Shown piece by piece: positions 5,913 to 58,380 of a stretch of 64,000 bases of DNA. Source of the stretch: Tubulanus polymorphus (lineage: Eukaryota > Animalia > Nemertea); NCBI RefSeq assembly GCF_964204645.1, contig NC_134026.1, positions 13,886,050 through 13,950,049 of the forward strand, given 5' to 3'. Numbering within the stretch: position 1 is the stretch's first letter; every line of letters starts with the position of its first letter. The position numbers and the translations under genes were made by a program. The notes beneath the pieces were generated by a model, which made no database searches, was not told where the DNA came from, and saw only the letters and a list, made by a program, of their open reading frames with translations.

Positions 5913-6188
5913 GGAGCCTTACGGCCGAATTATTGTCGAGTTGAATCACTACCCTTAGTTTTTCAAGAAGCGTGTGTGTGAGTAGTGTGTCTGACCTACT
6001 TCCTTACGCCTGCGTATCGCGGATACTCTTCAGTAGTTAAACCGTTGTTATACGCTTGCTTTAAATAGCGGGAATAATTTCAGACACTAGCTACAGTTTA
6101 TTCATAAAGGTTGAGAGGTTCATAAAATAACTTTTGAAATTTTATTTTTAAATCAGTTTTTGTTCAGTATATTACATACACATTAGGA

Positions 6189-7129
6189 ATGACTCATTCT
6201 GACCAGGATGCAGGCCAACCAAGTGCGGCCCAGGAAGGGGTCAATCCAACTGCAGGTTTGGATGATTTTTTAAGCTCAATTACCACATTTGTCTCCCGTA
6301 GCATAAAAAGGGAATCTGAATCCCCATCAGGGACCAGGGAGGATGCCCGTGGAAAAATTCTGTGCCCCAAAATGTACAGTATGGGGCATAATTTTCCCGT
6401 CTGGTTAGAGCATTTTGAGAGCTACTGCACATTGTCCGGTGTATGTAGTAGTGAGCTTAAGAAACAACATTTACTAACGTACCTGGACCACGAGTCATAC
6501 CAGGCGGTTAAAAACCTCGTCTCGCCCCATCCCTGGATTACAATACTTTTGTTGAGGGGATAAAGAACCGTATGTCATTGACACAGTCAGCTTCCGATTT
6601 CAAAATGATGTTGAAATCTCGAGAGCAGAAACCCCAAGAAAACATCAGGCACTATGCGGATGCATTGACAGAACTCGCGCAGAGCGCATACCCAGGGGTT
6701 GATCACAGTTTGCAGGATCAGTTGGCACATGACCAATTCTTGGCAGGTGTGGCGGTACCCTCGAGTGTTAGGGAGCAGTTGTACGTGGCTTAGCCACAGT
6801 CCCTATCGTAGGCTGTGTCATTAGCTCGGGGTCATGAGACTGCGTGGCGCCTGACTGAGAGACAAGAGTCCAGACCCAATTGTCGACATGTAAATGATGT
6901 GAAGGCCAGTCAGACGGATGAGCTACTTTAGGAACTCATGGGCCTCGTCCAGGGTTTGAATGTCCGGATGGACTGTTTTGGAGGACAGGGTAAACACACA
7001 GACTCAGTCCAACTCCAAATCCATGCTGGTGGTGTCGAGAACCGGACCATACAGCGGATACATGTCCACAGGTTACATGTTTATACATGTTCCGGTAGAG
7101 GTCATTATGCCAAAAACTGCCCCGGGTAA
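6189..7129 (+). pseudogene. gag: Gypsy gag (frameshifted)
   Basis: WLEHFESYC..KKQHLLTYL; SREQKPQENIRHYADALTELAQSAYP..DQFLAG; knuckles CWWCREPDHTADTC and TCSGRGHYAKNCP. Confidence 0.85.
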
Positions 7130-7559
7130 CAGGGAAAGGATTACAGGTGGTCCACTAGGGGGCAAGGGAATCGCCTCCACACCGTAGAATCCGGAAACAT
7201 GTTCCTTCATCTGTAAGCGATTCCGTACATGATAAGAGCCCAAATTGTAAATAGTTCACTAGACCCTTGCGTAAGGGAAATTGTAGGGAACGAAATCTTT
7301 GGTGAAACCGATACGACAGGTCATACATATCTGGAAAAGCAGGCAACTTCAAAAGTTTTAACTCCTTACCCAGATACCTCACTGTCGGTCGGTCAACCAG
7401 GTGATGGAATTTCGGATGGTTCTCCTCTGAGGCAGGAGACACTTTCAAATGTTTTACCTCAGTGCCCAGATAACTTTCAGTTGATAAAGTCACACGAAGA
7501 TACGGTCACAACCACAATAACAACTTTCAATAGGTCCGAGCTGCCCCGTGGCTGAGAAA

Positions 7560-9111
7560 TTGGTCCGTCATGTCGATTTTAGAGACACTGGGCTTTACTG
7601 CTCTGGTGTTCCTAATGGTTCAACACGTACGTCTATACTCTAGACTTTGTTAAAAACCTCTTTCTGGGAGAAGAGTCGTAGGACCGGTCAGGGAAATCTG
7701 CTGCCAGTCGACTTTGAATAAGCCACTGCCACGGGCGCGAACATGAAGGTTCATGGGGTGGCCAAGGTAGAACTTCAGTTGGGAACCTGTAGATTCATGG
7801 TCCCCTAGTAATAGCCGATGACTGAGCTCAGGAGTGCCTGTTAGGTAGTGACTTCTTTGAACAGAATGGTTGCATTATTTATTACCCTGGTAGAGTTCTT
7901 GAGTATGACCTTACCCATGTACCATTGGAGACCAAGGATGCACGACTTGTTATATCCCTGGAGGACATAAGGTCGTGGCCACTGCATATTTCAAGCAGAG
8001 ATATAGTGTTTTTGTTGGTATGGTTGGTCGTGGGAACCGTACTCCGTGCCTGGCTGGCAAATATCCGGTATGTCCGCGGGATAGGAAGGTAGCAATCCGC
8101 AAATGGCCAATTTTTTTAGATGAAACCATTAGGGTTCGTCGAGGGGAGTTTGTGGGTATTTTCTTGCCTATCGAATCTGACCGGTGGCTACTGGCAAGTG
8201 GTGATCCAAGAATGTGACAAACCTTAAACAGCTTTTTGTTCTGAGAACCGTTTGTGGGAATGGAATGTTATGCCATTTGGTCTCACAAATGCTCCAGCCT
8301 GTTTCACACGGCTTATGTCATTGGCTCTCGACAAGGTGTCATGGAAAACAGCCTTGATCTATCTCCATGACGTCATAGTCGACTCTGCTGATGTGGTACC
8401 CCACATTTCTAAGCTGTCAGAGGTATTCAGTCGTTTCAAAGCAGCTACTATGAAATTGAAGCCAAGAAAATGTCACCTCCTCCAAAAGCGGTTAAGATTC
8501 CTGAACCACGCCGTGAGCGGGAGCAGAATTGAAACTGACCAGGCAAAAGTTGACAATGTCCAAGGTTGGCCAGCCCCTAGCAATGTATCAGTAGCACGAA
8601 GTTTCACTGGCCTCGTCACTTCATCCAAGATCTATCATGGGATATGCAGAAATGTGTAAACCCTGTCAAAGATGGGTCAGCCTTTCGAATGGGGTATCAG
8701 TCAGCAAAGAGCATTCGAACAAATTAAAAATTCATTGACAAGCTTTCCTGACTTTTCAGAGGGATCGGGGAAATTCATAGTTGATTGTGATGCTAGTAAC
8801 TGGGCTATAGGTTCATTTCTTTCGCAGTTGCAAGGAAATCAAACAGAACGAGTAATAGCATATGGGGGTCGAGTTTTGAGAGGCGGGGAGGAGAACTGTT
8901 GCGCCACGAGGTGAGAAATGCTTGCTCTAGTCGAATCAATTCATTATTTCCGCCACAACTTAATGGGCGGTAAGTTCCTTGTCCGGACTAACCACACAGC
9001 CCTAAAGTGGCTTCAGTCATCCAATATTCAATCAGGCCAAGAAGCCTGCTGGAATGAAAGGCTGGCAGACTACGATTTCGACATTGAGCACAGGTCCGGT
9101 GTCAAGAGTAA
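7560..9111 (+). pseudogene. pol: Gypsy pol: protease, partial RT, RNase H (disrupted; N-terminal RT deleted)
   Basis: DTG near 7583; ECLLGSDFF near 7830; SGYWQV; WNVMPFGLTNAPACF; YLHD in place of YLDD; FIVDCDASNWAIG; TNHTALKWL; DYDFDIEHRSG. Confidence 0.9.
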
Positions 9112-10300
9112 TGTGACCGGATGCCTCAATACCAAAAACGGAAGCCGGATTTTAAAAAAAGAATACAAGTGTATTACACTATGTACAATTAGACGCAATA
9201 CTTAAATCACAATTCACACATGAGCGTTGGTAACTGGCAGCCTATGATCGGAGGAAAAGACTCTCGGCACTGATGATTACGATATCAGTTGAATACCCCT
9301 AGTTACAACCAGGTCAATTCAGGATTGGCACTGGCAGCCGACGAACAAAAATTCTCGGCACTGGCGATAATCTAAGTTTAATGCAATTCATAATCATAAT
9401 CTTAAAGTTAGGTCTTAGCTATCTATATCTATTCACCCATTCGCTGCTGAGGCCTATTTTGGCCCTGTGTGAGCATTTTTGTCAAAATTTGACTTTTTCT
9501 TTAAATAACTGCAATTAATCTATTTTTCACATATGAAACGCATAAAACTAATTGTGAATATATATTTTCACGATTTTGACATTTGGCGTCCCATAGCGGC
9601 CATTTTGATACATATGGCTGACCATACTAAAAACAACCATTTTCCGAAAAAAGTCACTAAAAAGCGAAAATAAAAACCAATAAAATGATTATGGAGAGCT
9701 GGCAGCACCGTACGGTAAGAAGGGTTATATAATGACAATAAAAAAAAATTTCAAATTTTTGGTTATTATTTCCATTTTTTACACCCATGAGCAATCTACA
9801 AGATTTTGATACAATTTTTGAAAGATTTTTTTTTGGAAAGTGCTGGCAATTCAAAATAAAACGATCGGCATTGTGCTGCAGTCATTTTGAAAAGAATAGC
9901 TAATACGCGTGCTCTGCACAAAGTGACGCCATAGAAGCGTGCTGAGCAGGTCCATAGCACTGAAAGGGTTAACCGTCAAACGCTTATACTTTCTGAATCT
10001 TATACCTAGATTCTAGCACTAGAATTAAACAATTATGGAATTTATAGAACTATTCACCTACAACTCCATCTGAATATTTAATATTTAACTTTTCCATATT
10101 ATCATAGAATATTCTAGAGTATTAAACACAAGGAAGTTATTAGAGGAAAACCCTCAAACTAGCAAGGAAATTGTGTAAGAAAAATATCGAACTTACCCCA
10201 CGATGCGACCACAACATGCTCGTCATTGCATGAGTGTACACATGCAGGCTTATGGCGAAATGCGCGTTGAACCAGAGAAATATATAATACCCGACCAACA
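9112..10300. mobile_element. Solo-LTR-like insertion (TG...CA) interrupting Gypsy pol
   Basis: Starts TGTGACCGG and ends CCCGACCAACA. Removing it restores the in-frame pol sequence HRSGVKSNADSLS. No TSD seen. Confidence 0.55.
9436..9968. mobile_element. piggyBac-like non-autonomous element
   Basis: TTCA|CCCATTCGCTGCT ... AGCACTGAAAGGG|TTAA (degenerate TIRs, TTAA-type target). Confidence 0.65.
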
Positions 10301-11065
10301 CGCTGATTCACTCTCGCAGATTCCAAGAGGGTCAAGCGCCATATTAGTAAAAAACCAGGTAGTTCTGCCAAATGTGCTATTACCTAAGGTCCCTATCTCA
10401 CCTCGATAATAGTATTTCCGGTAGGCACTCAGGGACGACTAAGACAGAACGTAAAGTCTGCCAACAGTTTTGGTGTTTTGGACTGGCGAAGGCAGTCAAT
10501 AGCTTTGTCAAGCAATGCCGTAAATGTCAGCAATGCAAAACCCTTCTAAATGACCTAAAGCGCCACTGGTACCAACACCAATCAGTAGGAGAGGGCAAAG
10601 GCTGCATATCGACATTGTTGGCCCGCTGCAACGAACAAAACGTGGAAACGTTTATATAATTGTGGTGCAGGACGCTTTCACCAAGTGGGTTGAGGCCAGG
10701 CCAGTGAGATAACCCTACCACTGGACGTCTTAGCCCTCCTGAGGAACTTATCCACCTGACCAAGTTTAGCCAGGACATGTGTAGAAACCCGACTGAAGCT
10801 CATCAGAGAGTCCGTGACCGCCTTGGAAAGCCCAACGACGTCAGGCAGCAAATTACGATAGATTTGCTCAGCATGGGGGTACAATGTGGGTGACCGAGTA
10901 TGGAGGTATAGCCAGAGATATAGTCCAATAAGCGCTGGATGGGTCCTTACATAATTGTTGAGAAACTCACTGAGGTCACTTACCGGGTTCAGTTGGAGGA
11001 GGGTTTAGGGACCAAGGTTGGGACAGTGCGTTTAAATAACCTGAAGCTCTGTCATGCCCCATAGT
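10301..11065 (+). pseudogene. Gypsy integrase remnant
   Basis: HLDNSISGRHSG..CRKCQQCK zinc-binding region; LHIDIVGPL..VVQDAFTKWVEA; core partly deleted; WMGPYIIVEKL (GPY/F) near 10937. Confidence 0.85.
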
Positions 11066-18589: not shown

Positions 18590-20480
18590 GATGAATATTT
18601 CAAACATCATTCACAATGAAATTCCCAAAAAAGTCATTATAAATGATTACTACAGACATTTATTAAAATCATGGACAGTTTTTCAACAACATCTAGTTAC
18701 AACTGAGACCATTACCGAAATTCTGCAAAAACCATTTTTTTGGCAACCCAAAAATTAAGCTCAACAAAACAACCAATTTCACAGAATACATACATCACGG
18801 TATAATCAGTCTACAACATCTATTCGATAATCGTGGCAACTACAAAGCATTTAACGAAACTCCATTAACAAATGAATTTAAACACAAACGTATATACAAT
18901 GCGATACCGCATCATTGGAAACTAATTCTATCTGACCAAAATTTAGATCCTGATGAATAACCAAAACTTCTACGTGCAATTTGGTAATATAGTGTACTAT
19001 AGGAAAACTTTTATCATCTCAAATTTATGGAATTCTATTATTAAAAAATCTCCATCAAATCCCACCGAGGGCAAACCAAAATTACTGAAATGTTAAATAC
19101 TGATCTGAACTGGCCGGAAATTTGGAATGAAGTTTATAATAAACATATTGATAGACGATTTAGTGATATTCATTGGAAATTACTTCATAATACTCTTGCA
19201 ACAGCTTCAAAACTAGTACTTTGGAAAATGAAAACTGATCCAAATTGGAAAATTTGTGGACGCGTGGCAACGAATGACAATGTAGTATACTCATGCACAG
19301 ACGCACAGCAATTATATTCATCTATACAACCAATCTTTCAACGCATACTAAGCACACCTATAAATATCACTCAAGACATTGTCTACACAAGAATTACTAA
19401 AACAATAGAAAGAGATTTCTTCAAACGCACACTCGCGAACTACCTTTTGTTTCTCGCACAATCCATTTTGTACAAAAATCATTACAATCTAGAACAAGGC
19501 TCTGGCCGCATCAACACTATAATTTATTTCAAAAACTCACTAAAAGAACGCCTACACCAAGAAATCATGCTTCAACAAAACCTTCATATTTGGAGTCTTA
19601 ACAATATACTTATACACCTGGACGCAAGCGGACGGAACGTAGTAAACAGAATCACAATCGACACCATTAGCGTAGTCTATTAATTAAACCCAACGCCACT
19701 TTTTTTTACTACTTACACCTACATATCCCGACTTTGACACTTGAGGTATGTTGTGATTTAGATCGAACAGGAATGACGGTCTATCAATACGCATAGAACT
19801 GTCTGACCACTTTTGCTCTATATCATCACATACGCATTAGTTTACTGTTTCAGATGTTTTGACTGTAAACTCAGTCTCATTGCTGCGATAGCTGGAACAC
19901 TGCCTCCGTTTTTGGCCTTAGGATAGATAGCAAGCTCAGTCTATCTACGCGCAATGGTGACTGGAAAGTTGCCTCTTGACATCAGTCTCATTAAAAACGA
20001 CCAAAAACCTAATCGTGACAATATAAATAAAACCAGATCAAGACTGTATATATGTAAGTGTACAAACATGTATTCAATATTCACGTGTCTGCGCTGCATT
20101 CTTACTGACGGTCTATCAATGCGCATAGCTCTGTCCGTTTGATTGCGATACATTCCCGGACCTAACTATGCACTGTATATTAGAAACACATAACTGCTCC
20201 CATTGTAAAACTTTTACTTTTAGGCAAATTCAGCACCAGATGTGAAGTACCAACTGCGCACCCCTTGACGGAGAAACCCATCCTCATCGGAGCTGCACCG
20301 TCGATGTCATACAACTACACTTCGGATACCCCAAGGCTATACTCCCATCTGGAAGATTTGCGTTTCGAAATGTGCTTTCTTCCTATCTAGTCAACTTAGA
20401 GGACTTCTACATCAACATCTACCCAAGAAAAAATGACAATAAACTACCGGACTATTTACACGTAGAAAAAGACCAAAAAA
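18590..20480 (+). mobile_element. 5'-truncated Tx1/L1-clade LINE (ORF2 C-terminus with zf-RVT region, plus 3' region)
   Basis: YYRHLLKSW..EILQKPFF; YNAIPHHWK; WPEIW..IHWKLLHNTLAT..WKICG..VVYSC (degenerate CCHC); stop at 19683; AATAAA and A-rich end near 20438-20490. Confidence 0.75.
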
Positions 20481-22445: not shown

Positions 22446-24539
22446 GATATGAATGAATTGAGGATATGAATGAATTGAGATCTGTTAAAAGTGAACTAAA
22501 GTTAACTGATGATTATCAATAGCACCTAGCTTTTTTTGATATTTTGTTACCTGAATAGTTTTCCCATTTTTTGCTTTTACGACGTCACCCGGCTTAACAG
22601 CATTACCACCTGGCATGTTCTCACACAGAGGAATGTAACCTAGAACATTAAACGGAGACAGATTTAGATATTAGAAATACAAGTTGAAATACAAGTTGCT
22701 TCATCAGACATCACACTAGCAAGCTGTAAATAAGCGGCCGGTCACGGATATTGGCCGGCTCAAAACGCTTCGATGTCCGTTGCAAAATCGCTCCTGCCTG
22801 TCACGCTGACCGGCACGAAAATTTTCATGGTTCTAATAGTTTTAGCTTTTTTGAACCGATATGAAAATAAATAGCACCGTTTCCTATCACCGATCAATTA
22901 ATTCCGATGTTTATTGCGATAAATCGCGCCAATTGTCTTCTGATCAATTCCGTTGCTTATTGCGGTGAAATCGCGCTACCGTATTTTCCGGCCAATAAGC
23001 CGAGGGCAGTTTTTTAGCCTAAAATACATGGATTTCATAAAGCTTTGCCCAATAAGCCGAGGCCCTTCATCAGAGATTTTAATTCACTGATTTGTCAATT
23101 AGTTTGTCTTAATTGACGATTTAAGAGGCTGACAATAGTGCCCGCCGATGTGTGAGAGTGCTGTGTATACTATCATCGCCGAGTGACTGTGCTATATATA
23201 GACTCACTCAGCTGATTACTATACACACAGCCATACACGCAGTACGCGGCTCACTGCTTATTTGCATATATACTAATGTATGAACTGACACGTGGTAGTA
23301 CGATGAACTCGAGCGTTATATAAATGTATACCATTGCCGCTGTGCGGTGATGAAACAATCAAAGTAAAAATAAAACAGTTCAAAATAGATTATAATTGGT
23401 AGTAAATAACACACATGTAAATATATAAGAAACAAAATATTGTAATCAGTCAAAGTCAAGTGACACCCTGTAAGTTTAATCATGAATGTATTCTATCGCC
23501 TGTTGTTGGTTCCGGTTTCGTTTGCTGTTATTGGAGATTGATTTTATGGTATAGTTAGAAAGGTTCATCCTGATAGCTGTTAGAGATTTTATGGTATTGT
23601 GAAAGTAAATTTTAATGTTGAAGTCCCAATATAATAAAGGTTGTGTGCAATTCTTCATATGTTTTTAATGATAGTAATAAGGAAATTCTCTATAAAACAG
23701 TAGTACTTTGCTAAATGGCAGGCACCAACTCATTAATGTCAGGCAGCATTATAGTTGGTGCCTGACATGTGGCAGGCACTGGCAAAAAAATTATTTACAG
23801 GCTTGCACGAGGATATTCAGAGTATGTTCATTCTACATGTTCAGAAAAATTATTAACTTGCTAGACCAGCATGAATGCCAGCAGGGACCAGGGGTATTCC
23901 CCTCAAAACTTGAAACCACATCATATAAGGAAGTAAAAGGATAAATACTACAGTGCGCAATTTGACAAAGATTGGCCACATTAGATCAAGTAACCTAAAA
24001 TACTTTTTGTTTTGAACGATAGATAATGTTAGATAAATACACAAGAACATCTCTTCACATAAATTAGAGGGACTCAGAGTATCATTTGTTGACACTTATC
24101 TTAAACAAGAGCCTGTGCATTTTGTGAGTGATGCTATTTGTGGGTTGACGTGTCAAAATAAGTACATTCTGCTCCCATGTTATTTACCCAGTACAATCAT
24201 TTTTAAGTGACACGGCCAGGGGGATGAAAGAAACAATTACTTCAGGTCAATTTTTTTATTTGTCTCAATGATTTGGATACCTTATAAAATTGAATTGGAT
24301 TTGATGAGGTTTGGTTCAATAAAATATAATTGAATTGGATATATATTGCAGAATAAAATTTGATTGAATTTGTAATATAGGCACATGACGAATTAACGTA
24401 TATTAACGTATCAATTCAATTCTTAACCTTAAAGATATCCCTCACAAAAAATTCACACATGTTATTTATGTGAAAACCATGTGTGAAAGACACAAAAAAC
24501 ATGTGATCCCAACCATCACACATGTGATCTGTGTTGTGG

Positions 24540-26799
24540 GGTAAGCGATTTTTTCTACCGGCCACAGTTAGATTTCGCTCTGCGCATGTTCTGAATATAC
24601 CGGAAGTAAACAAACCGTGACGTACGCGGAAGTAAAGTTCAACACATGTAAGTCGCAATTGAAATTAATTCTTTTTCTCTCTATCTTCTACATGAAATAC
24701 GTGTGCCACAAATGATGTTTTTTCATGTCCAATGTATTTTGGACAAAAAGGAAGATCCAATACTCAGAACAGTAGTTGCCAAATCTGGTAGTCATCTCTT
24801 GACCGATGAGGGATTGCGGTCCTTGAAATTAAATTCCTATGTTATTACTAGTGAGTAAGTAGTGTGTTGTTTCGGAAGATCTTAAAACTCTTGTTTGTAT
24901 TAATTAGTATCTCATACAGTTCTAGACAACATGTATTGTTACTGGATAATAAATCATCCCATGCGCATTTTTTCATTGAACTTCATATCAATATCTTTTG
25001 CTCTTTATTCAGGTGATAAACATGGCCCTAGCCCTTAAAGCTGAAAAAAGTATGTATGACTGTACGGTTATTGATTCTTATATAATAACCCCGATTGTCG
25101 CAGGAAACAAATCACGATACAAATATAGTCTATTCAAGAAAGTATGAAGTACTTTGATAACTTTTCTCGTTTTTCATTTACTTTTGAGACTCCTCATAAA
25201 ATCTATTTGATTACTAGATAAATTTTGAAAACAAATATATGATCATTGGCGGCTACAACAAGGATAGTAATCATTGGGTTCTGGTTGTATGTAGAATTAT
25301 AATTATTTGATAATTTCGGTATTTATTTGTCAAATATTAAGTATTTAGAAATAATGCATTTTTTTATTCATATCAGATGATCAAGCCCAAAAACTATGAA
25401 ATCGTCTACCTTGATCCGTTTGGAGCATCTGATTTTAAAAAAGCTCAAGCACTGAAGAATATTAAGTAAGAAATCATTATGAAAACTGCGTTATTCTCTA
25501 TCGATGTCAATGTATTATGTATAATTTCCAAACTATTTCTCATCTCAATGTAAGGTCCTACTTGACTTACTGAGCCACAGCCCTTGGTAGACATGACATT
25601 GATGATATTGAATGGTCCATAATCGAACCGCCTCACCAGAAACAACTTGATGGGCATAGTTGTGGCGTGCTGACTACTTTGGTAGGATTGATTTGTTTAA
25701 TTTCAATATTATTGATTATTGTTTAACAAATTTCATTCAATTACATATGTGTATTCAACAGTATGCTGGCAGTGTTCTTCAAGGTACTGACACGACCCAT
25801 ATTTCAACCAAATGCAAATTCACATCGTTGGACATCAGCCACTGTTAATGAATCAGGTAGGCCCTCGACCTTATAGTTATTAAATTCAAAGTTCATTATA
25901 ATGCAATCCTTTTTAATTTTAATGCCAGTGCTCGCTACATGCCATTTCAGAGAACCAAATTGCCCAATCTAACTTAAATTTGATGAAAGTTCCAGTCTTT
26001 ATAATGCCAATTTTGTTATTATGCCATGTTTTCCATTTGCCGCAACAGTGTACTAATACTGTATAGGCTTACACAAACTGATTGGCTATCTTTCTCCTTT
26101 TATCCTAGATGATATAAGTAACATATGCCATGTCTGTGGAAATGAAAATGGCAAGTCTTCTGATTGGGTAAGTATAACTTGAATAGATTTAGGTGAGATA
26201 AATTAAAAAGACCAAAAGAATATACAATGTAACAAGGGAATTATGGCTAGTAATTGCAGGGAGGGTCAAAGTCATGTTTTATGCTTTGATTGTTAAGACA
26301 GAAGCACTCATATATAAATGAACATTAATCAATATCAATATACAGTTCTGTTATTTCTTTTCTAGGAGGAATGCAACTATTGCTATCGATTGTACCATGT
26401 GGTGTATCTACCTCATACTTTAAACCGAAAGATAATTCTAAATTTTGATTGGAAATGTATTTTCTGCAAGCAGTACTGTACTAAGTAAAGAAATAAACAC
26501 TTAAATTCATGATAAGAAATAAACACAGTAAATTCATTCTATATGCTGAATTCCATTTTATTTTTGTCTCAATATTTACAACCTGTCATAGAAGGAAACG
26601 GATCGGAAATCTTTTCAGATTTTAACTTTAAAATTTCGATTTATCATCGCAGAATAACGTATACCTATTGACACTGTAATTGACTTTTGACTAGCCATGT
26701 GCTTTACTTCCGCGTACGTCACGGTTTGTTTACTTCCGGTATATTCAGAACATGCGCAGTGCGAAACCTAACTGTGGCCGGTAGAAAAAATCGCTTACC
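24540..26799 (+). mobile_element. Non-autonomous Mutator-like element (Pack-MULE-like) carrying a Ulp1+PHD gene
   Basis: 98-bp TIRs (24540-24637 and 26702-26799, 2 mismatches) starting GGTAAGCG; 9-bp TSD GTGTTGTGG/ATGTTGTGG; no transposase inside. Confidence 0.88.
24712..26488 (+). pseudogene. Spliced Ulp1/SENP-like (peptidase C48) protease fused to a C-terminal PHD finger, at least 8 exons, lightly disabled
   Basis: GT-AG exons at about 24712-24854, 25013-25141, 25218-25286, 25377-25465, 25555-25681, 25762-25856, 26109-26167 and 26366-26488. They give ..SE-VINMAL..NHWVLV..YLDPFG..QLDGHSCGV..ICHVCG..DWEECNYCYRLYH..WKCIFC*. One TGA (25571), a frameshift in the 25762 exon and an imperfect first donor. 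AATAAA follows the stop. Confidence 0.85.
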
Positions 26800-28919
26800 A
26801 TGTTGTGGAGCACATCACTTGTGTGAATAACACATGAGCACATGTCATGTGTGATTGTGAATATATTTTGTCATAAAATGCATCTTTGGAATAAGAATAG
26901 TTACATGACTCTTCTCATTACAAGACATATTTTCAAAACAGAATAACATTGTTAATGGATGGTTCGATCACTACCAGGCCGTAACGTACAAAAACCAAGT
27001 ACAAGTGTCCATTCAACCATTGAAAGTCTATAGAGTTTAGATTTTCATTTGGCTTAATTCATAAAAAGGTTATTATATGTTTTTGCATTCGCTGTTGAGT
27101 TTATAAAAATATAAATAATCAAAAAAGACTTTAAAAAATATCAGGTATTTACAGGATTCGAACCACTACGGTTAGCAAAGGACTAGAAGTAAGCATACAG
27201 GCACACATGCAAACATTTACCGTTTTAATCAATTTTCATGCTTTATTTCTAAGTTAGAACAGTCTGTCTGCTATTTGAATTAAAGTTCCAAGGCGAGTAT
27301 CATTGCGTTTCATCAAATATTTATAGTCGACGATATAAATTGAATGTACTGTAATCGGTAAAATCTGTGGCGTGTACCAAATCAATTAAATCAAATTCAT
27401 CCAAACTTTATTTCATTTATGATTGATGCATTGCAAAGTATTTCATGATTGATGCATTGCAAAGTACAACATGTCCATTCCTAGCTTTTTCATAGGTTAA
27501 ATAATTAGAGTAGGCCTAGATTACACAATGAACTCTTTTTAAATCACTATCTGTCCAGCCTTGAAAGGGGCTTATCTGCATACTATTACTAATGATTTCT
27601 TAAAATTTTGCAGATGAAACTCACAAGGATACTGAGGCAAACCATGGGTGCCATGATTCTGATAATTATGATGATGTACTGAATGATCAGGTACTGTGGT
27701 ATTGCACAGTATTTGCGTATTATTTCTTCATTTATGTCATGACTTATAAAATTAAATTTTCCAATAACAATATAGGCACTCAGTACATTTCCTCAAGTCG
27801 TGATTTTTGTTTATGAAACGTATAATTTCACCCAGGACAGATTACTGAAAAAGAGGTTTCGAATGCTGTTTGTGGTAAGTGATAATTGAAAACAGTTATG
27901 AGCTAGTGTTACGATAATCCCATTTATTTTCGTCATGTTTCACTTATCAAATTGTACCTTTTTTCACCAGATGATTGACATTAGGGATGGTCATTCCATT
28001 TCCCCTTTAAAAAGTTTATTTTTTACGCCGCGCAGGGGACAATCAAAGAGTTTGTATGAAACATCATGTCTGAAGAAAGAGATTTTTACCATTATGGATG
28101 TGTAGTTATACTTCAAAACTAGATGAATCATTGAACACATCCCACACAATAAATCGTTATATCATACGCCGTGAGTATCAGTATTCGCGCTAGAAATGAT
28201 GAATATGAACCTCTTCAATTGTGCCGCCATTTTACTTAGCACCTGCTGATCGACCTCATTTACATATTCAATGAATGCTATGACGTCATTCAAGCCAGTT
28301 CAACACAAATTATACATAACCGAGATTTTGGGGGGTTTCGTCTTTGAAAGCCCCATAACTACCGAAAAAAGCTTCGGATCTTGACGAGATAAAGTTCTTC
28401 CGACACAAATAGCATTGAATTTCACATGTGTTATTTTGGACAGTTAAAGATGCTGCATAAAAAATGTGCTCAAATAAATCGAATTTTTGAGACTTTTTGG
28501 TTAATTTCTCAAAAAATATGAAACCCACAGCTTTCAACTTTGCGCACCATAACGAAAAACAAATTACGAAATATATTTTTGCTTCATCCGTTCAATTCGC
28601 CCATTAGTAGTAAAATAAACAGACTAATGAAATTGAGTTCGAGTGTGCTTAAAGCTTTGAGCTTTGAGCGTAGTGCTGGTGGGCCCTTTGGGAATACAAA
28701 TATATATATGAAAGATCAAGGTGATTAGTAGCCTAATAATTGCCCCTACTGAACAACCCACTCCCTCTGGAATATAGGTAGCCAAGTACATATTTTGACT
28801 ATGTTGCATTAGGCCTATGCCAGTCAACCCAGCTTTTTTGACATATATATATATATATACACACAGTTAAACTCACTTAATTCGTCGTCGGTTAATTTGT
28901 ATAACTACCTAATTCTTCT

Positions 28920-37680: not shown

Positions 37681-37851
37681 AAAATAATAATAATAAGAAA
37701 CACGCGAATCTCAACAGGGTTTTCTGTGATGTAACAGAAAACCCTAATAATCACGCGAATCTCAATAGGGTTTTCTGTGATGTAACAGAAAACCCTAATA
37801 AGAAACACGCGAATCTCAATAGGGTTTTCTGTGACGAAACAGAAAACCCTA
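37681..37851. repeat. Three tandem copies of a HINE-like terminus (family E) with a 13-bp hairpin
   Basis: CACGCGAATCTCAA(T/C)AGGGTTTTCTGTGA(T/C)G(T/A)AACAGAAAACCCTA three times. Single copy at 42080-42127. Confidence 0.8.
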
Positions 37852-37954
37852 AATATAGCTGCAAGCAGCGATAACGGGTTTATGCCTTTCTGGATAGAAT
37901 GTCGTTCAGGGATGCGAGCAAAGATTTCACCCGAAATCAGTTGTTACATTCCTA

Positions 37955-40860
37955 TTACGATTACGATTTTATTTACACTCCAACCATTTCCATGGTATAT
38001 GGAGGAAAACTATTACACATGTATATACAAATATTTACAAAACAATACTGTAGTGATTAAAATTTAGAGAATGAAAACTTAACAAAATATATATACATCA
38101 ACTATTTACAATACTATATGTACTATTGGAGGGATCTATATACATCTAAGCCGGTTATAATGAATTTAGCTAATTTGACCGCTGGGTTTTTCAGAATATC
38201 AAGGATATTAAAGGTATTCAAATTCAAATAGTTTTTCCGGGGTTCGTTCAGTAAGGTACAGTCAAACAGAAAATGGGATTCATCACCTAAAGTATTACAA
38301 GTGGGGCATATTCTATCGGCTCTGTCTAAATGGTTTGAAAATTTGTTCACAGGTATAATATAGGACCCGACCCTAAATTCAAATAAACTAGTTCCTAAGT
38401 CATCACCAAGTTCTATTATATACTTCTCTAACCTAATACCATTTTTATATTGCCTAAAGTTTGTGTATATCGGATTAGTATTTATGGCAGATACGGTTTC
38501 TTGAAGGTGCTGGTCACGGAGTATCTGTTTTATTCGTTTTGAAAAAGATTTACTGTAAGTCATGAATTGCTGCATCCAAATGCAGGACAAACCACAGTCA
38601 TCAAAGGTTTTCTTTATATATGATAACCAAGGGCTCTTAAATTTATCCCTTAAAAATAAATTGAAAGATATTTTATAAAGTATTGAATTAAGTTTGGTTT
38701 GCTTTCCAGATACTGTTTTTACCCAAATGTTAACAATCCTGCGTCTAACATCTATATTCAAAGGATAACGTCCTAGCTCTGATAAAACTTGTAAGTTGCG
38801 AGAATATTTCGTCACTTTCATTAAGATTTTACAGAAGAAGCAATGAACATTTTCTAATTAATCAAGATTTTCGTATCCCCAGATCTCACACCCATACATG
38901 GCTATTGGTGCAACTCACATATCAAATAATTTAAACATAACATCTATGGACAATTTCAAACGTCTGCCTTTTTGAACGATCGAAAACATAGCTCTCATAG
39001 CTTTATCGTAAAAATACTTTTTTGCCTTAGCAAAGTTACCATTCCAAATAAATTTCACTCCGAGATAAACATAATCTTCAACTACCTCAAACTGTTGATC
39101 ACCAAACATAAATTTCGAAATCATTTTTATCTGGGATTTACTTCGCGCAAATACGAGTACTTTAGTTTTCTCTGAATTTACAGTGAGACCATTAGCGGCA
39201 CAATATTCAAATAAGGTTCTAAGTGTAGCTGAAGAGATTTCTCATCCTCAGCAAGAATAACTGTATCATCTGCGTATAGTATTATGAATAAATTCAGTAA
39301 AGTATCAATATCAGGGTCACGATTCAAATTTAGTTTTTCAATAAATGACAAAGTCGGTTTTCCACGATCAATGAAAAATTCTTCAATGTCGTTTAAGAAT
39401 AACGAAAAGATGATAGGTGAGAGATTTTCGCCTTGTCTTAACCCTTTCGCTGCGTACACGCTTGCACCGCCCCCTACGTAAGGTATTTTCCGAAAAATTC
39501 GATTTTTTTCAAATTGTTTTTAACCCCGATTTTTCGTGTTTTTATCGAAGATTATGATGTTATTTAGTGAAAATCAGTAAAAAATCATACCAACAGCCTT
39601 TTCTGTAGGGGGGGGGCGTGTTGGGGGGGGGGTCAGGATGGGTTAGAAATTTTTTTTTTCAGTTTTTCACCCAAGTGCCTATCTCAGTCTTTGGTGATTG
39701 ATGCTACGGTGTGGATGAAAGAAATTCAATTGATATGGGATATCCTTTTCCGCTGGTAGAGGTACGTAAGTGGGGAGCCATCTCAATCCCGCGCAAATTA
39801 CCATGTGCTCAACAGGCTGACAGCACCAACTACTGACGCATTTTCGCCATCTGTTGTTTAGAAAGCTAACTATCTTGTCTTACATGCGTTTCCATACTGT
39901 TTGCTGTGTACGCGTTCGAGTTATAAATCAATAGGTGCATGACGTTTCTACAACGTCATACGCACAGCACGTGTCACTCATATGACGTTTCCAAAACGTC
40001 ACACGTAGCGAAAGGGTTAAGCGTCTATCAGCTGCAAAGTATTGTGACATGCAACCATTAAATTTAACACATGATTTTATGGAATTATACATATTTTTGA
40101 CCACATTGAAAAAGTTTCCATTAACACTGTTAGCAATTAAGTTTCGCCATAACGTTACCCTACAAATCGAGTCGAAAGCTTTCTTAAAATCAACAAAGGC
40201 GCAAAAAAGTCTTCTTCCCTGACAAAGATACAGCTCTACGATTGTTTTAAGCGTGTAAATATGATCAATGGTGGAATATTTCGAACTGAAGCCAGCCTGG
40301 GCTTCACTTATAATGTCATTCGTATCTAGGAATGTTGACAATCTTTGATTTAGGATACTTGTAAATAACTTACCACGACAGCTAACTAAGGTAATACCTC
40401 TATAATTATCAGGATAAGAGGGATCGCCATTCTTTTTGAAAATGGGTTTGATGACGCCTATAGACCACATCTCAGGAACATATCCTGTTATAAGAACTAA
40501 ATTGAATAATTTTTGTAATATATCAACTAAAAATGGATATCATTTGTGATTCCATCAATGCCTGGGGCCTTATTGTTTTTGAGTAAAGAGATAGCCTTAA
40601 TTACTTCATCACTGGTTATATCACTGTTCAAAATTTAATTGTCATAGACAGGAGGGTCACCCACGTCTGGGGGCTCATCACCGTCATCGGTTTCATTGTT
40701 AACATTATTCAAATCATTTAATCTCATAAAATGTTGAAGAAAAATATCGATATCTATATTAGCCTCATTATTTTTTGTTCCGCTCGCAGAGTTTAGCATC
40801 GACCAATACTTTTTTGGGTTATTAATTTCGCATTCTCTCAATTCCTTTCCGTTTTTTTGA
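37955..40860 (-). mobile_element. 5'-truncated LINE ORF2 (RTE-X-like), frameshifted and interrupted
   Basis: NYRGITLVS, QAGF, FVDFKKAFDSI, LRQGENLSP, YADDTVI, YVYLG, ELGRYPL and C-terminal CPTC..DESHFLFDC. 3' AATAAA plus an (ATCGTA)n tail near 37955-37975. Confidence 0.85.
39442..40016. mobile_element. piggyBac-like non-autonomous element inserted in the LINE RT
   Basis: TTAA|CCCTTTCGCTGCGT ... ACGTAGCGAAAGGG|TTAA. Excision restores ..AADRRLRQGENLSP. Confidence 0.9.
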
Positions 40861-42289
40861 AAGAGTCCCACCTAGGGGTCAACTCACAACATGGATATGT
40901 TGACCCACATGTGCTACTACGCGCAAAATACTAATGTGCCAGGTTTTGGGGGAAATAACATCGAGCAGAACGAAGCTACAGTGTTTTTACCATTCCCTAG
41001 TGACAGTTTAAGCGCATATTCGGTTATTATTAGTTCCGAAAAAAAGTCGACTAGATAAGAAAACCGAATTTGGCCCAAAGCACAAATTTGGCCTATAGGG
41101 TAAACTATGCAGGAGGGAAGGCCTCATAGTGTTACTATTAGTAGAGGAGTGAAAAGTCCGTCTGACAAGTCAAGCGATCAGTTGGGGACTACAATTCACA
41201 TATGAAATTGACGTCCAATAACCATTATAAAAACATAATCACGAACGGTACCATCACTCCCCATTACTGACTGTCACTGGTCTCTGGCTAGCAAACATTC
41301 TTTATCGGTGCAGTGGGTAGGTATTTTCAACTTACTTTGTTCTTCTATGACATTACCATCGCCGCTGCGTCACGATGTGATGTACATATACAAGAAACCT
41401 CCAATTTGTAATGTATGTGATGTATAAACGGACTTTAGACCGGTTAATATCGACGATAACAAGGTATCACCGACGCTGACATTTTCTGACACTATCTAGT
41501 ATGACCCACCTTTTGGACTGGACCAATTCAATTCAATTAAGAAAACGCGCACTGGTACAGTAAATAAATAAACCGCTGTTGATTTTTCGAAGTATTGATA
41601 TCCACGAACAAAACTATACTATTATAGAATGTTTAAAAGGAACTGCTTTTAATAACAGTATGAATAAACTTACTTCACAAACAAGGAAGTACATTTTTAA
41701 CTTGTGAATGGTCGAACCCCAGTTATTCACAGTAACCTGTGATTTGGATATTCTCGGAGCCTTCCTTCATTATTTATTAATGAAATGACGTCACAAACTT
41801 TCAGATTCGCGCCATGATTGATGATTGCTATTTCCACCGGTGTTATCTTTAAGTAACTTCAAGTTTAAAATAGGAAGCACAGTACATCCATAGAAACTAC
41901 GCGCAGAAAGAGACTGTTATATTATTATCAGAGTTTAACATTACGTTTCAAAGGTGTTAGTAGTCAAAAGCTAATAGAAGATGATTTTTATGTGACGAAA
42001 CTCAGTGGAAAATATGTTAAAATAATAATCAGCAGGAATCCAATAGAGTTTCTGCCGAGGCAGCAGAAACCCTAATAATCTCGTGAATCTCAATAGGGTT
42101 TTCTGTGATGTAACAGAAAACCCTAATGAAAAATGGCAAACCATTAGGAAGTTACAAGACTCAGAATTCAGGCCAAAAATTGAAATTTTTGGGCACAAAA
42201 AAGGTCACAGGACAGCCATCTTGACATGATCACAGAGCTACAAAATTCCTCTATGTTAGGAATGTTTCTCAATATATATCACATTTCTA

Positions 42290-43114: not shown

Positions 43115-44738
43115 ATGACACTCATTCTGAGTTTTTAATTTTTTCTTAAACATTTTTCTCGTTTTTTGGCAGTTTAACCATCTTTCTGTGACAGGTACAT
43201 GTACGCGCGACTGAAAGCATGAAGTCGCACTGTAACCCAGCAGTCAACCACTTTAGCTAACAACGAATCTTTAATTGAATCACATTCTGTATTTGCCACT
43301 AGTAATGACCAGCTTGTTAGTATTGAATCGTCATTCAAAACTGTCTCTTCAACATTTGAACGCAAATCTTGACGAAGTCTCATAACATTATTTGTCTTTA
43401 AGATTGGATTAATAATGGTTTCTAACGTTTCAAAGAACCTGTATGCAGTCGCTGACATCTCGAATAAACCCCCCCTGTTCACAATTTCTGTCCATTTCTT
43501 GGTATATACCATGAAATTTTGTGTACTTGACACTCCCGGAGACACTTCCCATAACTTAATTAAGTTCGTAAATATATGTGCATGTTGATTTTTACATTTT
43601 CTGTAGTGATTAATCAGCTTGGCACATACATAACCACCCAAATAGTACACGACTTGCTTTTCAGTCTCTGTCAAGGTCAAATTACCTGCATTTATTTCCA
43701 GTGATTGTTTATCAGGATTTGTGTACCTTTTTTCAGAATTTCTTTAAGAAGATTTTCAAGAATTATCTGTATGAGAAAATGGTCACTACCCATGGAAGGA
43801 GTTTCTGATGCTGTTTTGAACCTTTGTATAAAATTCATGGCTGGTGCCAAAGTAGCTACTTCATGAAATTTCGAAAAGACTGCGATTTGTTTTTTTGGAA
43901 ACTGTGTTTTATTGTCTCCCGCTGTCACAGCAATCCAAATTTTTTCCAAAAGTTCTGTTAACAAGTGTCTTTATAATTCGGGTTTTCAGTTAATTTTAAA
44001 ACTGTGGTAGCATTTTCCAAAAGTTCCGAATTATTTATATCCGAGTTAAGAATATCCTTTACAGCATCACAAAATAGCTGAATTTTTTCCTGTTGGAGCT
44101 CACTCAATGAATATTTTGCCTTGTCTGAAAATGAAATAATATGATGTTAAAATATTATTATTATATATTATATAGAGCAATTAATTATTAATATTAAATT
44201 ATTATTAATGCAAAAAATAATTATTTTAAATCACCATGCGGGAATACTTACTCTGAAAGTTCTGAGTTCTTTTTTTCGTTTCTTTACTGTTGGAACATTT
44301 GATTTCTTCTGAGATTTTACTTGAAGCTCTTTGACTTTGTCATCCTTTATCGAATTTGAGGAGTCTTTCAGAACAGTGTGTTCAGCAGCTTGCCCTACAA
44401 GAAAGAATAAAATATCTGTACTTACAAACGATTATTTCGTGAAGATGATTAGATCCAGATGGAGAGACACAAAATTGCAACGACCAACCTTTTTTGCAAT
44501 TGGAACACAGAAAAACTCCGGCGTTCTCGTCCAATCGTTTTTTCAAATTCGGCACACATGGCATATGATACCAAACTGTGCTGCAAGCATGTGATTCGCA
44601 CGCAATTATATCGTCCAATTCTTGAGACTTACATGAACAGTAAATTTCAAATAAATTCGAAATATCACTGTCTTCAGATTCGGAATTATTCTCAAAATCA
44701 GATTGACTAAACCCGTACGCTATGTTATCATTCGCCAT
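43115..44738 (-). pseudogene. Spliced PHD-finger protein with a C-terminal YLGGYV/NRGGL domain (P-element accessory gene), frameshifted
   Basis: Exon 44738-44489: YCSC..IACESHAC..WYHMPC..FLCSNC (PHD). Exon 44394-44252 is open. The last exon, from 44124, includes ORFs 43692-43964 and 43174-43680 (VVYYLGGYVCAKL..KWTEIVNRGGLF..WVTVRLHAF). Confidence 0.75.
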
Positions 44739-46044
44739 TTTGTCCAGTGTTATTTACTAGTTGCTAAGCGCCGAGTTACGCCGAGTGCTGACGGAAATTG
44801 CCGAAGTGGAATCCCCGCCCACTGTGTAGCAGGTGCGCGATGATTGACTGCAACTATGATACGCTGCGCGAAATGAATAGGCGAGCTCTCTCCAGTCAAA
44901 TGATTACTCCAAGGTATAAGTAACCATAATAGTGGACACACTTAGTTGTTTGGTGAGTGGTGCTACAGTACATGCAATAAGAATTGTTAACATGACATTG
45001 TTATGCTGCATTGTTCCTACCTTTTACATTAATGGGTACTTTCAATTTAGCTAATGAAAGAAATGCTCCAACAACACATGCTCCACCACCCATATCAGCT
45101 CGCATTTTATCCATGTCTTTACTCATTTTAAGAGATATACCACCGCTGAAAAGAGACCACCATAATTGTTAATAAAGGACCAATGGTCCAGTGGCTCGCC
45201 AAACTGGTGTGGGGAAGTTAAAAATCTGTCAAGTAGCCTACTGGTACGCAAAAATTCATTTTATTGACAATTAAACAAGAAAAAAATATATGAAAAGGAC
45301 TCAATTTTGGTCAGTGTGAACTTTTGATGATAACTGACTACAGGAGAATGATATATTCCAATAATTGATTATGGGCCTTTTGTCAGAACAAATGTTCAAA
45401 ATTCTAATACATCCCTTGAACGACCTGAAACAACTAAAACTATGAGTGACCCGCTAAGATACGGTACAAACTTGGTGAAGGCCTGGGTTTCATTGGAGGT
45501 TTTTCATTATCATATATGGACCAATCATTACAGAAGCTCTACAAGTTCTTCAAATTTGAGGCCAGTGCCGGTTACTGATGAAACAAAGTTTATCGATTGA
45601 CATCGTTTTTAATAATTTCACGACATTGAACACGAGAGTATATTGCGATATTGCCTACGCGACTGTACACGACTGTTTTCAACGCGAACGCTCATCACTG
45701 TGCCGTAGTTAACAAACTAATACTCATAATCAAGCTCCAAAACGGATCGCTAATACTTCAGTTAATGATGATTAAACAAGTATTCCAGTCGTGTATATAT
45801 CAGACTCATCTCTAAAAATCCGATGCTATCAGTAAATCAGCCGTGTGGCGAACACGTAAGTAAATTTCTGCATTTTAAAACCACATTTTCGTTAGATATC
45901 TTGATGCAATGTTACCTTATGCATGGAATATCAAAACTAGATGAATTATTGAACACATCGCACACATTAAATTGTTATACCATACGCCTTAAGTATCAGT
46001 ATTTGCGCAAGAAATGATGAATATCAACCTATTCAATCGTATAT

Positions 46045-57774: not shown

Positions 57775-58380
57775 AACTGTTGAAGAACTTTAAGATGTAT
57801 TCACCACCTTCTAACAAGCGTGACATCATGCGTTTTTTAGGAATGGCGGGATACAACAGACAGTTTTGTAAAAATTTCACACAAGTCCCTGTTTCTTTAA
57901 CACAGTTAGTGAAAAAGAATGCACAATTTGAGTGGAGTGAAACTTGTGAGAAATCTTTTTCAATTAACAATACATTTATTGATGTCAACTCCTTTTCTCC
58001 CAGCTCCAAATTTCGATAAACAATTTAAGCTTTCAGTTGACGCCAGTGATTTGGGTGCAGGCGCAGTTTTAGCTCAAGATGATGACGACGGTTTGGAACA
58101 TTCTTTATGCTTCTTTTCAAAGTTTGTAGCCGCGCAGAAAAATAACTCGACAATTGAGAAGGAATGCCTGTCTATAATCTTAGCTTTGGAACATTTTGAT
58201 GTCTATGCAAGTATGAAAATCTTTCCAGTAGTTATATTTACATTAACTTTCTTGTACAAGATGCAGAACAAGAATAAGTGTCTCATGGCTTGGAGTGTGA
58301 TACTGCAGTCGTATGATTTAGACATAAGACGTATCAAAAGACGCTGTAATGTTGTTTCAGATGCCCTTTCGCGCACGTAA
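57775..58380 (+). pseudogene. Gypsy (Gmr1-like) RT connection plus terminal RNase H
   Basis: MRFLGMAGYNRQFCKNF..FEWSETC; FKLSVDASDLGAGAVL..STIEKECL..NVVSDALSRT* (pol ends right after RNase H). A purine tract and TGTTAC LTR start follow at 58532. Confidence 0.85.

What the first reader, a model, noticed from the sequence alone, without database searches (positions are those of the whole stretch)
24540..26799. Transposase-less Mutator-like element carrying an intron-rich SUMO/ubiquitin-like protease + PHD finger gene
Seen: 98-bp TIRs with 2 mismatches, a 9-bp TSD with 1 mismatch, and at least 8 small GT-AG exons that the ORF track misses. They splice to a C48 protease with His (NHWVLV), Asp (YLDP) and Gln/Cys (QLDGHSCG) in the right order, followed by a PHD finger and polyA signals. 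This copy has a stop, a frameshift, an imperfect first donor and a Cys-to-Tyr change in the PHD. Established: long TIRs with 9-bp TSDs define MULEs; ULP-carrying MULEs (Kaonashi) are known in Arabidopsis; SUMOylation is needed for TE heterochromatin silencing in animals. Inference: an animal mini-MULE family keeps only a chromatin-targeted deSUMOylase, which could act as an anti-silencing module mobilised in trans.
Basis: partly seen in the sequence, partly recalled or inferred. Interest (0 to 1): 0.85.

Follow-up and report, generated by a model that had tools for sequence, protein, structure and literature searches.

The report
Jumping element with dead protease gene
This is a real, multi-copy jumping element that has no cutting enzyme of its own and carries a predicted spliced gene for a likely SUMO-type protease plus PHD finger; the gene is broken in the same places in the commonest copies, so it is likely leftover cargo from a larger, known kind of transposon and not a working anti-silencing device.

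Summary
Observation confirmed: 98-bp TIRs with 2 mismatches, a 9-bp target duplication (8/9), eight modelled exons and seven GT-AG introns. Reads show the empty site (66 reads skipping 2260+9 bp) and roughly ten related copies about 1% from this one. Catalytic spacing His-Asp-Cys 17/53 and Gln-Cys 6 equals human SENP1, and exon 5 draws Peptidase_C48 in 27 of 30 Atlas hits. No HMM or sequence search hit any exon, and the spliced product was not scored. The anti-silencing reading is weakly supported. The highest-depth family contigs share the in-frame stop and the out-of-frame first junction, and other copies delete the His/Asp exons. Only the PHD lesions are private to this copy. Ulp1+PHD is already described in animal Mutator and Ginger1 transposases, and this scan noted similar dead derivatives in other genomes. 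Best reading: a non-autonomous MULE-like family moved in trans with dead cargo. Still open: promoter-like motifs in both TIRs and a possible minus-strand gene stub suggest the parent may have had two convergent genes. No genome, transposase partner or RNA evidence was available.

The parts
24531..24539 (.). left copy of 9-bp target site duplication
   Evidence: empty site in reads skips 2260+9
24540..24637 (+). left TIR, 98 nt, CpG-rich (observed/expected 1.75 vs 0.59 inside), with two GGAAGT (ETS-like), one GCGCATG (NRF1-like) and one TGACGT (CRE-like) motif; motif names recalled
24648..24653 (+). best-scoring splice donor of the element (8 of 9 consensus positions, top of 109 GT sites), 10 nt inside the left TIR; no matching acceptor found
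24712..24854 (+). modelled exon 1 (5' end uncertain; in-frame ATG at 24712); N-terminal part of the protease domain by recalled likeness; its donor (24855) is out of phase with exon 2
   Evidence: X1 contig 24810-25046 has no gap here; no Pfam, Atlas or protein hit
25013..25141 (+). modelled exon 2
25218..25286 (+). modelled exon 3 with candidate catalytic His (25272, NHWVLV)
25377..25465 (+). modelled exon 4 with candidate catalytic Asp (25413, YLDP)
25555..25681 (+). modelled exon 5 with premature stop (25571-25573), candidate oxyanion Gln (25643) and catalytic Cys (25661)
   Evidence: Atlas Peptidase_C48 in 27 of 30 hits
25762..25856 (+). modelled exon 6, frameshifted in this copy; a 2-base insertion at 25808 is read in 25 of 72 X5 reads and in X1/X2 contigs
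26109..26167 (+). modelled exon 7, first Cys pair of the PHD finger
26366..26488 (+). modelled exon 8, rest of the PHD finger and stop codon; this copy has Tyr where 35 of 35 X5 reads give Cys, and Leu where 33 of 35 give Trp
26492..26523 (+). two AATAAA polyadenylation signals
26557..26698 (-). possible stub of a second, convergent gene: ATG 4 nt inside the right TIR, 11 codons, GT..AG intron-like stretch of 82 nt (26664-26583), four codons to a stop, AATAAA at 26562; speculative, found post hoc
   Evidence: 2 of 45 minus-strand GTR sites have such an acceptor 76-90 nt on
26702..26799 (-). right TIR
26800..26808 (.). right copy of the target site duplication (first base differs)

Best explanation
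This is one copy of a multi-copy, transposase-free DNA transposon, likely a deletion derivative of a larger Mutator-type element and likely moved by a partner's transposase, whose predicted SUMO-type protease + PHD gene was likely already dead when the family spread. Shown: the TIRs, the target duplication and empty site, multiple copies, motif order and spacing, lesions shared with the deepest contigs, and further deletions in sister copies. Inferred: a partner transposase binds the TIRs, excises the element and inserts it with a 9-bp staggered cut, so only the ends need to work and the interior decays. Inferred: in the parent, the protease removed SUMO-like modifiers from the transposase, from repair factors or from silencing factors on chromatin, with the PHD as a chromatin tether; substrate specificity is untested. 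Unresolved, about even odds: whether the gene is the tail of a fused transposase gene (known in animals) or a separate gene convergent with the transposase and driven from the TIR promoter (known in plants).
For: Empty site = element + 9 bp in 66 X5 reads. X1 contigs inside the element have depth 188-408, against 31-38 for flank contigs identical to the window (a rough guide only, the tool says contig depth is no copy number). This copy differs from four X1 contigs at 15 of 1384 letters, 1.1%. X5 depth at variant sites is similar near the left end (64-71), at exons 5-6 (53-69) and near the right end (56-61), and dips only where deletions map, so most copies with these inner ends carry this interior. 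The stop and the first-junction break are unchanged in the deepest X1 contigs (depth 408 and 188). Deletions 24838-25016, 25160-25422 (whole His exon and the Asp codon) and 25929-26312 (exon 7) are seen in 14, 5 and 9 X5 reads and in X1 and X2 contigs. Spacing His-Asp 17, Asp-Cys 53, Gln-Cys 6 equals SENP1 His533/Asp550/Gln597/Cys603 (PMC9268427 passages). Atlas: top score 0.94, PF02902 in 27 of 30 hits. Ulp1 and PHD are aligned in Mutator and Ginger1 transposases, and Ulp1 is named for hydra and lancelet Mutators (PMC2836005 passages). MULE TSDs are 8-11 bp; Rehavkus has 9-bp TSDs, 26-400-bp TIRs and a PHD (PMC6446971 passages).
Against: No partner transposase was seen: none of 112 window ORFs of 75 aa or more hit a transposase family in Pfam at E<=0.001, and no genome is held. 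No exon or frame gave a significant Pfam, PDB or protein-database hit, so the C48 call rests on motifs, spacing and one Atlas search; in its top cluster only 17% of members carry the family. Shared lesions rest on contigs of two runs from one study, X1 may be the window's source sample, and per-read counts at 25571-25573 and 24855 were not among the rows shown. The retained piece starts close to the N-terminal edge of the protease domain, with an in-frame ATG, which a random deletion need not give. An alternative acceptor at 25590 would skip the stop in frame, although it shortens Asp-Cys to 41 and discards a 53%-GC exon-like stretch.
Confidence: 0.75

Rival explanations
1. One reading: the family keeps a working stand-alone deSUMOylase-PHD gene in some master copies, which loosens SUMO-dependent silencing of itself and its autonomous partner.
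For: Complete catalytic motif set with SENP1 spacing. Sister copies have the PHD Cys and Trp, a better intron-3 donor (29 of 30 reads) and often the exon-6 frame. Promoter-like TIRs and polyA signals give a whole transcription unit. SUMO is tied to piRNA-guided transposon silencing in Drosophila (search listing and abstract starts). A plant precedent exists in Ulp1-bearing VANC/KIU genes (PMC13317346 passages).
Against: The stop and the first-junction break are in the deepest contigs, and catalytic exons are deleted in other copies. The PMC13317346 passage says the function of Ulp1 in plant MULEs is unknown.
Confidence: 0.1
2. Pack-MULE / Pack-TIR: the TIRs captured a piece of an intron-rich host gene.
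For: Seven short introns look host-like. Multicopy Pack-TIRs occur in animals (PMC8277862 abstract).
Against: Ulp1 followed directly by a C-terminal PHD is a transposon architecture; host SENPs lack such a PHD (recalled). Transposase genes with introns are known (1-4 in Ginger1). No host-like protein was hit.
Confidence: 0.06
3. The element belongs to another cut-and-paste superfamily with 8-9-bp duplications (Merlin, hAT, P or Zisupton), not to MULE.
For: The junctions parse equally as a perfect 8-bp duplication plus one extra base. GG..CC ends fit Merlin as well as MuDR, and Zisupton encodes a SUMO protease with 8-bp duplications (both recalled; one search found no text to confirm the terminal consensus).
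Against: The 9-bp parse keeps both termini symmetric. Ulp1+PHD is documented for Mutator. Ginger1 is excluded by its 4-bp CCGG/CCGT duplication and TGT ends.
Confidence: 0.09

Closest known systems
Animal Mutator/MuDR elements with Ulp1 (+PHD) transposase tails in hydra and lancelet (PMC2836005, passages and Fig. 1e legend)
   Same: Ulp1-type domain followed by a PHD, inside a TIR element with a MULE-sized target duplication
   Different: No transposase here; the gene has seven introns and is broken; fusion to a transposase is not shown
Rehavkus (PMC6446971, Table 1 and section 8 passages)
   Same: 9-bp TSD, TIR within 26-400 bp, PHD finger
   Different: No minisatellite before the 3' TIR, no DDE domain; that paper does not mention Ulp1 (0 occurrences)
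Plant ULP-MULEs: Arabidopsis KAONASHI/KIU-VANC, melon, rice, grapevine (PMC2528002 and PMC13317346 passages; the primary papers were not read)
   Same: MULE-borne Ulp1 domain, in some families as a separate gene opposite to the transposase; linked to anti-silencing for KIU-VANC
   Different: KI-MULEs lack TIRs and carry mudrA; this element has TIRs, a PHD, no transposase and no VANC domain seen
Ginger1-9_HM (PMC2836005 Table 1)
   Same: Ulp1+PHD tail, introns, TIR of about 100 bp
   Different: Ginger1 has 4-bp CCGG/CCGT TSDs and TGTNR ends; this has a 9-bp TSD and GG ends
Human SENP1 catalytic domain (PMC9268427 passages)
   Same: His-Asp-Gln-Cys order, with identical spacing 17/53 and Gln-Cys 6
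   Different: No significant sequence hit to any solved structure; substrate unknown; SENP1 has no C-terminal PHD (recalled)

Membership tests
MULE superfamily (non-autonomous member) | long TIRs | tested here: met
   98 nt, 2 mismatches
MULE superfamily (non-autonomous member) | 8-11-bp target site duplication | tested here: met
   9 bp with 1 mismatch, or 8 bp plus one base; empty site in 66 reads; range from PMC6446971
MULE superfamily (non-autonomous member) | mobile, multi-copy | tested here: met
   empty site, sister copies about 1% apart, several deletion forms
MULE superfamily (non-autonomous member) | ends shared with an element that encodes a MULE DDE transposase | not testable with these tools
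   no genome held; none in the window; metagenome matches to the terminal 20-mer were chance
Autonomous MULE / Rehavkus | DDE transposase ORF | tested here: not met
   2260-bp element filled by the protease-PHD gene; no long ORF
Rehavkus | minisatellite before the 3' TIR | tested here: not met
   TRF finds none
Ginger1 | 4-bp CCGG/CCGT TSD and TGTNR ends | tested here: not met
KI-MULE / KIU-VANC | non-TIR MULE with mudrA and a VANC-type gene | tested here: not met
   TIRs present, no transposase
Peptidase C48 (Ulp1/SENP) | His-Asp-(Gln)-Cys in order and spacing | tested here: met
   17/53/6 vs SENP1 numbering
Peptidase C48 (Ulp1/SENP) | PF02902 profile match | tested here: inconclusive
   single exons and frames give no hit; Atlas features of exon 5 point to PF02902; spliced product not scanned
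Peptidase C48 (Ulp1/SENP) | cleaves SUMO, NEDD8 or ubiquitin | not testable with these tools
   needs an assay
PHD finger | Cys4-His-Cys3 ligands with Trp before the last Cys pair | tested here: inconclusive
   7 of 8 ligands and the Trp in this copy; the missing Cys is read in 35 of 35 X5 reads; no Pfam PHD hit on the split exons
Pack-MULE / Pack-TIR | interior derived from an identifiable host gene | not testable with these tools
   no genome; protein searches blank

The most novel reading that the evidence does not exclude
The parent is an animal two-gene Mutator built like maize MuDR: housekeeping-type promoters in both TIRs drive a transposase from one end and, convergently, a free-standing SUMO-protease-PHD gene from the other. 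That gene is a dedicated chromatin deSUMOylase, an animal counterpart of plant VANC/KIU anti-silencing genes. This family is what is left after the transposase was deleted.
Probability: 0.18. Interest if true: 0.72.

Novelty: new member of a known kind. Interest (0 to 1): 0.3.

Why it matters
As it stands, it is another dead Ulp1-PHD derivative of a known transposon kind, useful for repeat annotation and as a probe for an undescribed autonomous partner. It would matter more if the parent proved to carry the protease-PHD as its own gene under a TIR promoter. The role of Ulp1 domains in transposons is stated to be unknown (PMC13317346 passage), and a free-standing 277-aa version would be a small, directly testable candidate for transposon-encoded deSUMOylation in animals, where SUMO is part of piRNA-guided silencing (listing).

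Tried and rejected
Pfam on 7 single exons and on 3 read-through frames: only chance-level hits. PDB sequence search with exons 3-4 and with exon 5: nothing significant. Protein database with exon 5, exons 3-4 and exon 1: 0, 7 and 5 candidates, none at E<=10. Whole-library phmmer with the 491-residue frame over exons 2, 5, 7 and 8: 0 hits at E<=0.001. These queries were short or diluted by intron translation, so the blanks are weak. Atlas on exon 1: no usable hit. Terminal 20-mer in metagenome contigs: 2 loci, both chance, 36 of 98 identical over the TIR. Degenerate Gln/Cys motif in viral contigs, meant to seed a C48 profile: 11 of 11 matches were short unrelated frames. tblastn of exon 5 against plasmids: 8 records, all E>=3. 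Rfam over 24000-27500: 0. Expression: no RNA holder listed, and the one guessed-RNA run laid gave 0 records; this is no evidence either way. Similarity between the two ends beyond the TIRs is not significant (193 of 1000 shuffles as good). The alternative acceptor at 25590 was considered and judged secondary. A 7- or 13-nt micro-exon in intron 1 would also put junction 1-2 in phase, but it lengthens a motif recalled as conserved; seen by eye, not tested. dN/dS could not be computed. Of 9 exonic differences between this copy and the read majority that I classified, 8 change the residue and 1 is silent (three minority rows at 26367-26370 left out; the frame at 25809 is uncertain), which only reflects decay of one copy. 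Literature searches showed no paper on a transposase-free or separately encoded Ulp1-PHD gene in an animal MULE. Repbase Reports and subscription papers are not in the library, and supplements of PMC6446971 and PMC2836005 were not opened and may hold such elements.

Full report
The element. 24540-26799 is bounded by 98-nt inverted repeats with 2 mismatches. It is the only copy in the window. The flanking 9-mers differ at one base; an 8-bp perfect duplication plus one extra base fits as well. Reads prove an insertion: 66 raw reads of run X5 (about 48 starts), plus X1 and X2 contigs, join 24531 to 26801, skipping 2260+9 bases. X1 depth of that empty form is 580 against 31-38 for flank contigs identical to the window, so the target is itself a repeat, and the empty form does not show that this insertion is polymorphic. 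The host is inferred to be an animal from the short GT-AG introns and the LINE- and Gypsy-like remains in the window. No genome is held.

The gene. Eight exons with seven GT-AG introns of 76-252 nt can be modelled, about 277 codons from the ATG at 24712. Spliced by this model, His-Asp is 17, Asp-Cys 53 and Gln-Cys 6, exactly the spacing of SENP1 His533, Asp550, Gln597 and Cys603 (PMC9268427, passages). The spacing depends on introns 3 and 4 being cut as modelled, so it also checks the splice model. The Atlas, given exon 5 alone, returned Peptidase_C48 in 27 of 30 hits, top score 0.94 with 172 of 256 features; the family covers 17%, 11% and 78% of the members of the top three clusters. Against this, no single exon or frame hit Pfam, PDB or the protein databases, and the spliced product itself was not scanned. 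Exons 7-8 hold seven of eight PHD ligands and the Trp before the last pair. SUMO specificity is inferred from family likeness only.

The family. X1 contigs inside the element have depth 188-408, about ten times the flank contigs; the tool warns this is no true copy number. This copy differs from four of them at 15 of 1384 letters, so the spread is recent. X5, a different sample and study, has 64-71 reads at variant sites near the left end, 53-69 at exons 5-6 and 56-61 near the right end, with dips (13-36) where deletions map. Most copies with these inner ends therefore carry this interior; longer partners, if present, are a minority. Only 18 of 841 loose-end rows were shown, so partners are not excluded.

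Which lesions are shared. Private to this copy: the PHD Tyr (35 of 35 X5 reads give Cys), the nearby Leu (33 of 35 give Trp) and the weak intron-3 donor (29 of 30). Polymorphic: the exon-6 frameshift (25 of 72 X5 reads, X1 depth 280 of 417 and X2 122 of 122 carry two more bases). Shared: the X1 contig 25423-25787 (depth 408) has three other letters, all located elsewhere, and no gap, so it keeps the stop. The X2 contig 25561-25859 has three other letters elsewhere but six unlocated gap letters. The X1 contig 24810-25046 (depth 188) has no gap, so it keeps the out-of-phase first junction, and a further X1 form (depth 155) deletes that junction. Three deletions (14, 5 and 9 X5 reads) remove the exon 1-2 junction, the His exon with the Asp codon, and exon 7. 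The unit that spread thus most likely carried a dead gene. Limits: contigs drop rare variants, X1 and X2 are one study, X1 may be the source sample, and per-read rows for the stop were not among the 40 of 396 shown.

The parent. The TIRs are CpG-rich (1.75 vs 0.59 inside) and hold ETS-, NRF1- and CRE-like motifs (names recalled); CCGGAAGT occurs only twice in the whole window, both times in the TIRs. MULE TIRs are stated to contain promoters (PMC6446971, passage). The strongest donor in the element lies 10 nt inside the left TIR and has no evident acceptor. That fits the first exon of a transposase gene whose middle was deleted, leaving the Ulp1-PHD tail, the arrangement described for animal Mutator and Ginger1 transposases (PMC2836005, passages). 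But the right end also reads inward as ATG, 11 codons, an 82-nt intron-like stretch (2 of 45 minus-strand GTR sites have such an acceptor, length recounted from its output), a short exon and an AATAAA that faces the protease gene's own signals. That fits a two-gene convergent parent, like MuDR (orientation recalled) and like plant MULEs with ULP in reverse orientation (PMC2528002, passages). These features were found post hoc, and I rate the two layouts about even.

Known context. MULE TSDs are 8-11 bp; Rehavkus has 9-bp TSDs, 26-400-bp TIRs and a PHD, but also a minisatellite that is absent here (PMC6446971, passages). Ginger1 is excluded by its TSD and ends. A 2026 survey of arthropod MULEs does not mention Ulp1, PHD or protease (PMC13359780, term counts and passages). 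Plant KIU-VANC genes link Ulp1 to anti-silencing, with the domain's role unknown (PMC13317346, passages; the primary papers were not read). SUMO's role in piRNA silencing comes from a search listing and abstract starts. Pack-TIRs in animals: PMC8277862, abstract and outline. Earlier notes of this scan describe similar Ulp1-PHD Mutator derivatives in other genomes; they are unchecked and were not used as support. No look-alike of this TIR and no note on a convergent two-gene layout was found.

Verdict. The structure is real and was well read. It is a new member of a known kind: a non-autonomous MULE-like family with dead protease-PHD cargo (0.75), filed as MULE-like only, since no transposase could be tied to its ends. 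A working anti-silencing module within this family is unlikely (0.1). The open point of value is the parent's layout. Interest 0.3.

Noticed in passing
window 24430-24539 and 26809-26900: The target is a short repeat rich in CACATGTG-type words; its empty form is deep in X1 (580) and in X5 (66 reads), so it is multi-copy. Left of it lies a further high-copy repeat (24300-24400).
   Followed up: partly
window 24540-24637 and 26702-26799: The TIRs look like a housekeeping promoter: CpG-rich, two ETS-like, one NRF1-like and one CRE-like motif (names recalled), each TIR followed within 10 nt by CACATG.
   Followed up: partly
window 26557-26698 (-): Possible stub of a convergent second gene: ATG, short exon, 82-nt intron-like stretch, short exon, AATAAA.
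   Followed up: partly
window 24695-24741 (+): Two overlapping frames read KYVCHK* and MMFFHVQCIL, which together resemble a frameshifted Cys-x2-Cys...Phe-His-x2-Cys zinc-finger piece upstream of the protease. If real, the coding region once ran further 5'.
   Followed up: no
window 43177-44753 (-): A weak PHD hit (E 0.0009, 44385-44753) lies upstream of a 189-aa frame (43177-43743) without a Pfam hit that resembles, from recall, the C-terminal part of P-element/THAP9-type transposases; probably another decayed transposon.
   Followed up: partly
window 61028-62275 (+): 416-aa open frame with a weak PHD/FYVE hit (E 5e-5 to 9e-4); LINE ORF1-like by recall.
   Followed up: partly
window 6138-10656 (+), 57913-58377 (+), 38126-40539 (-), 19045-19680 (+): Decayed Gypsy-like (RT, RNase H, integrase zinc finger) and LINE-like (RT, zf-RVT) remains.
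   Followed up: partly
window 25914-25944 vs 23763-23793: Intron 6 holds a 31-nt stretch 81% complementary to a small palindromic repeat 800 bases upstream of the element.
   Followed up: no
window 37684-37869 and 42067-42143: Tandem palindromic units of about 51-54 nt, repeated at three places in the window (also near 867).
   Followed up: no
L001 2965-2984, L002 3665-3684: Exact matches to the terminal 20-mer in two metagenome contigs; chance, with no similarity beyond it.
   Followed up: yes
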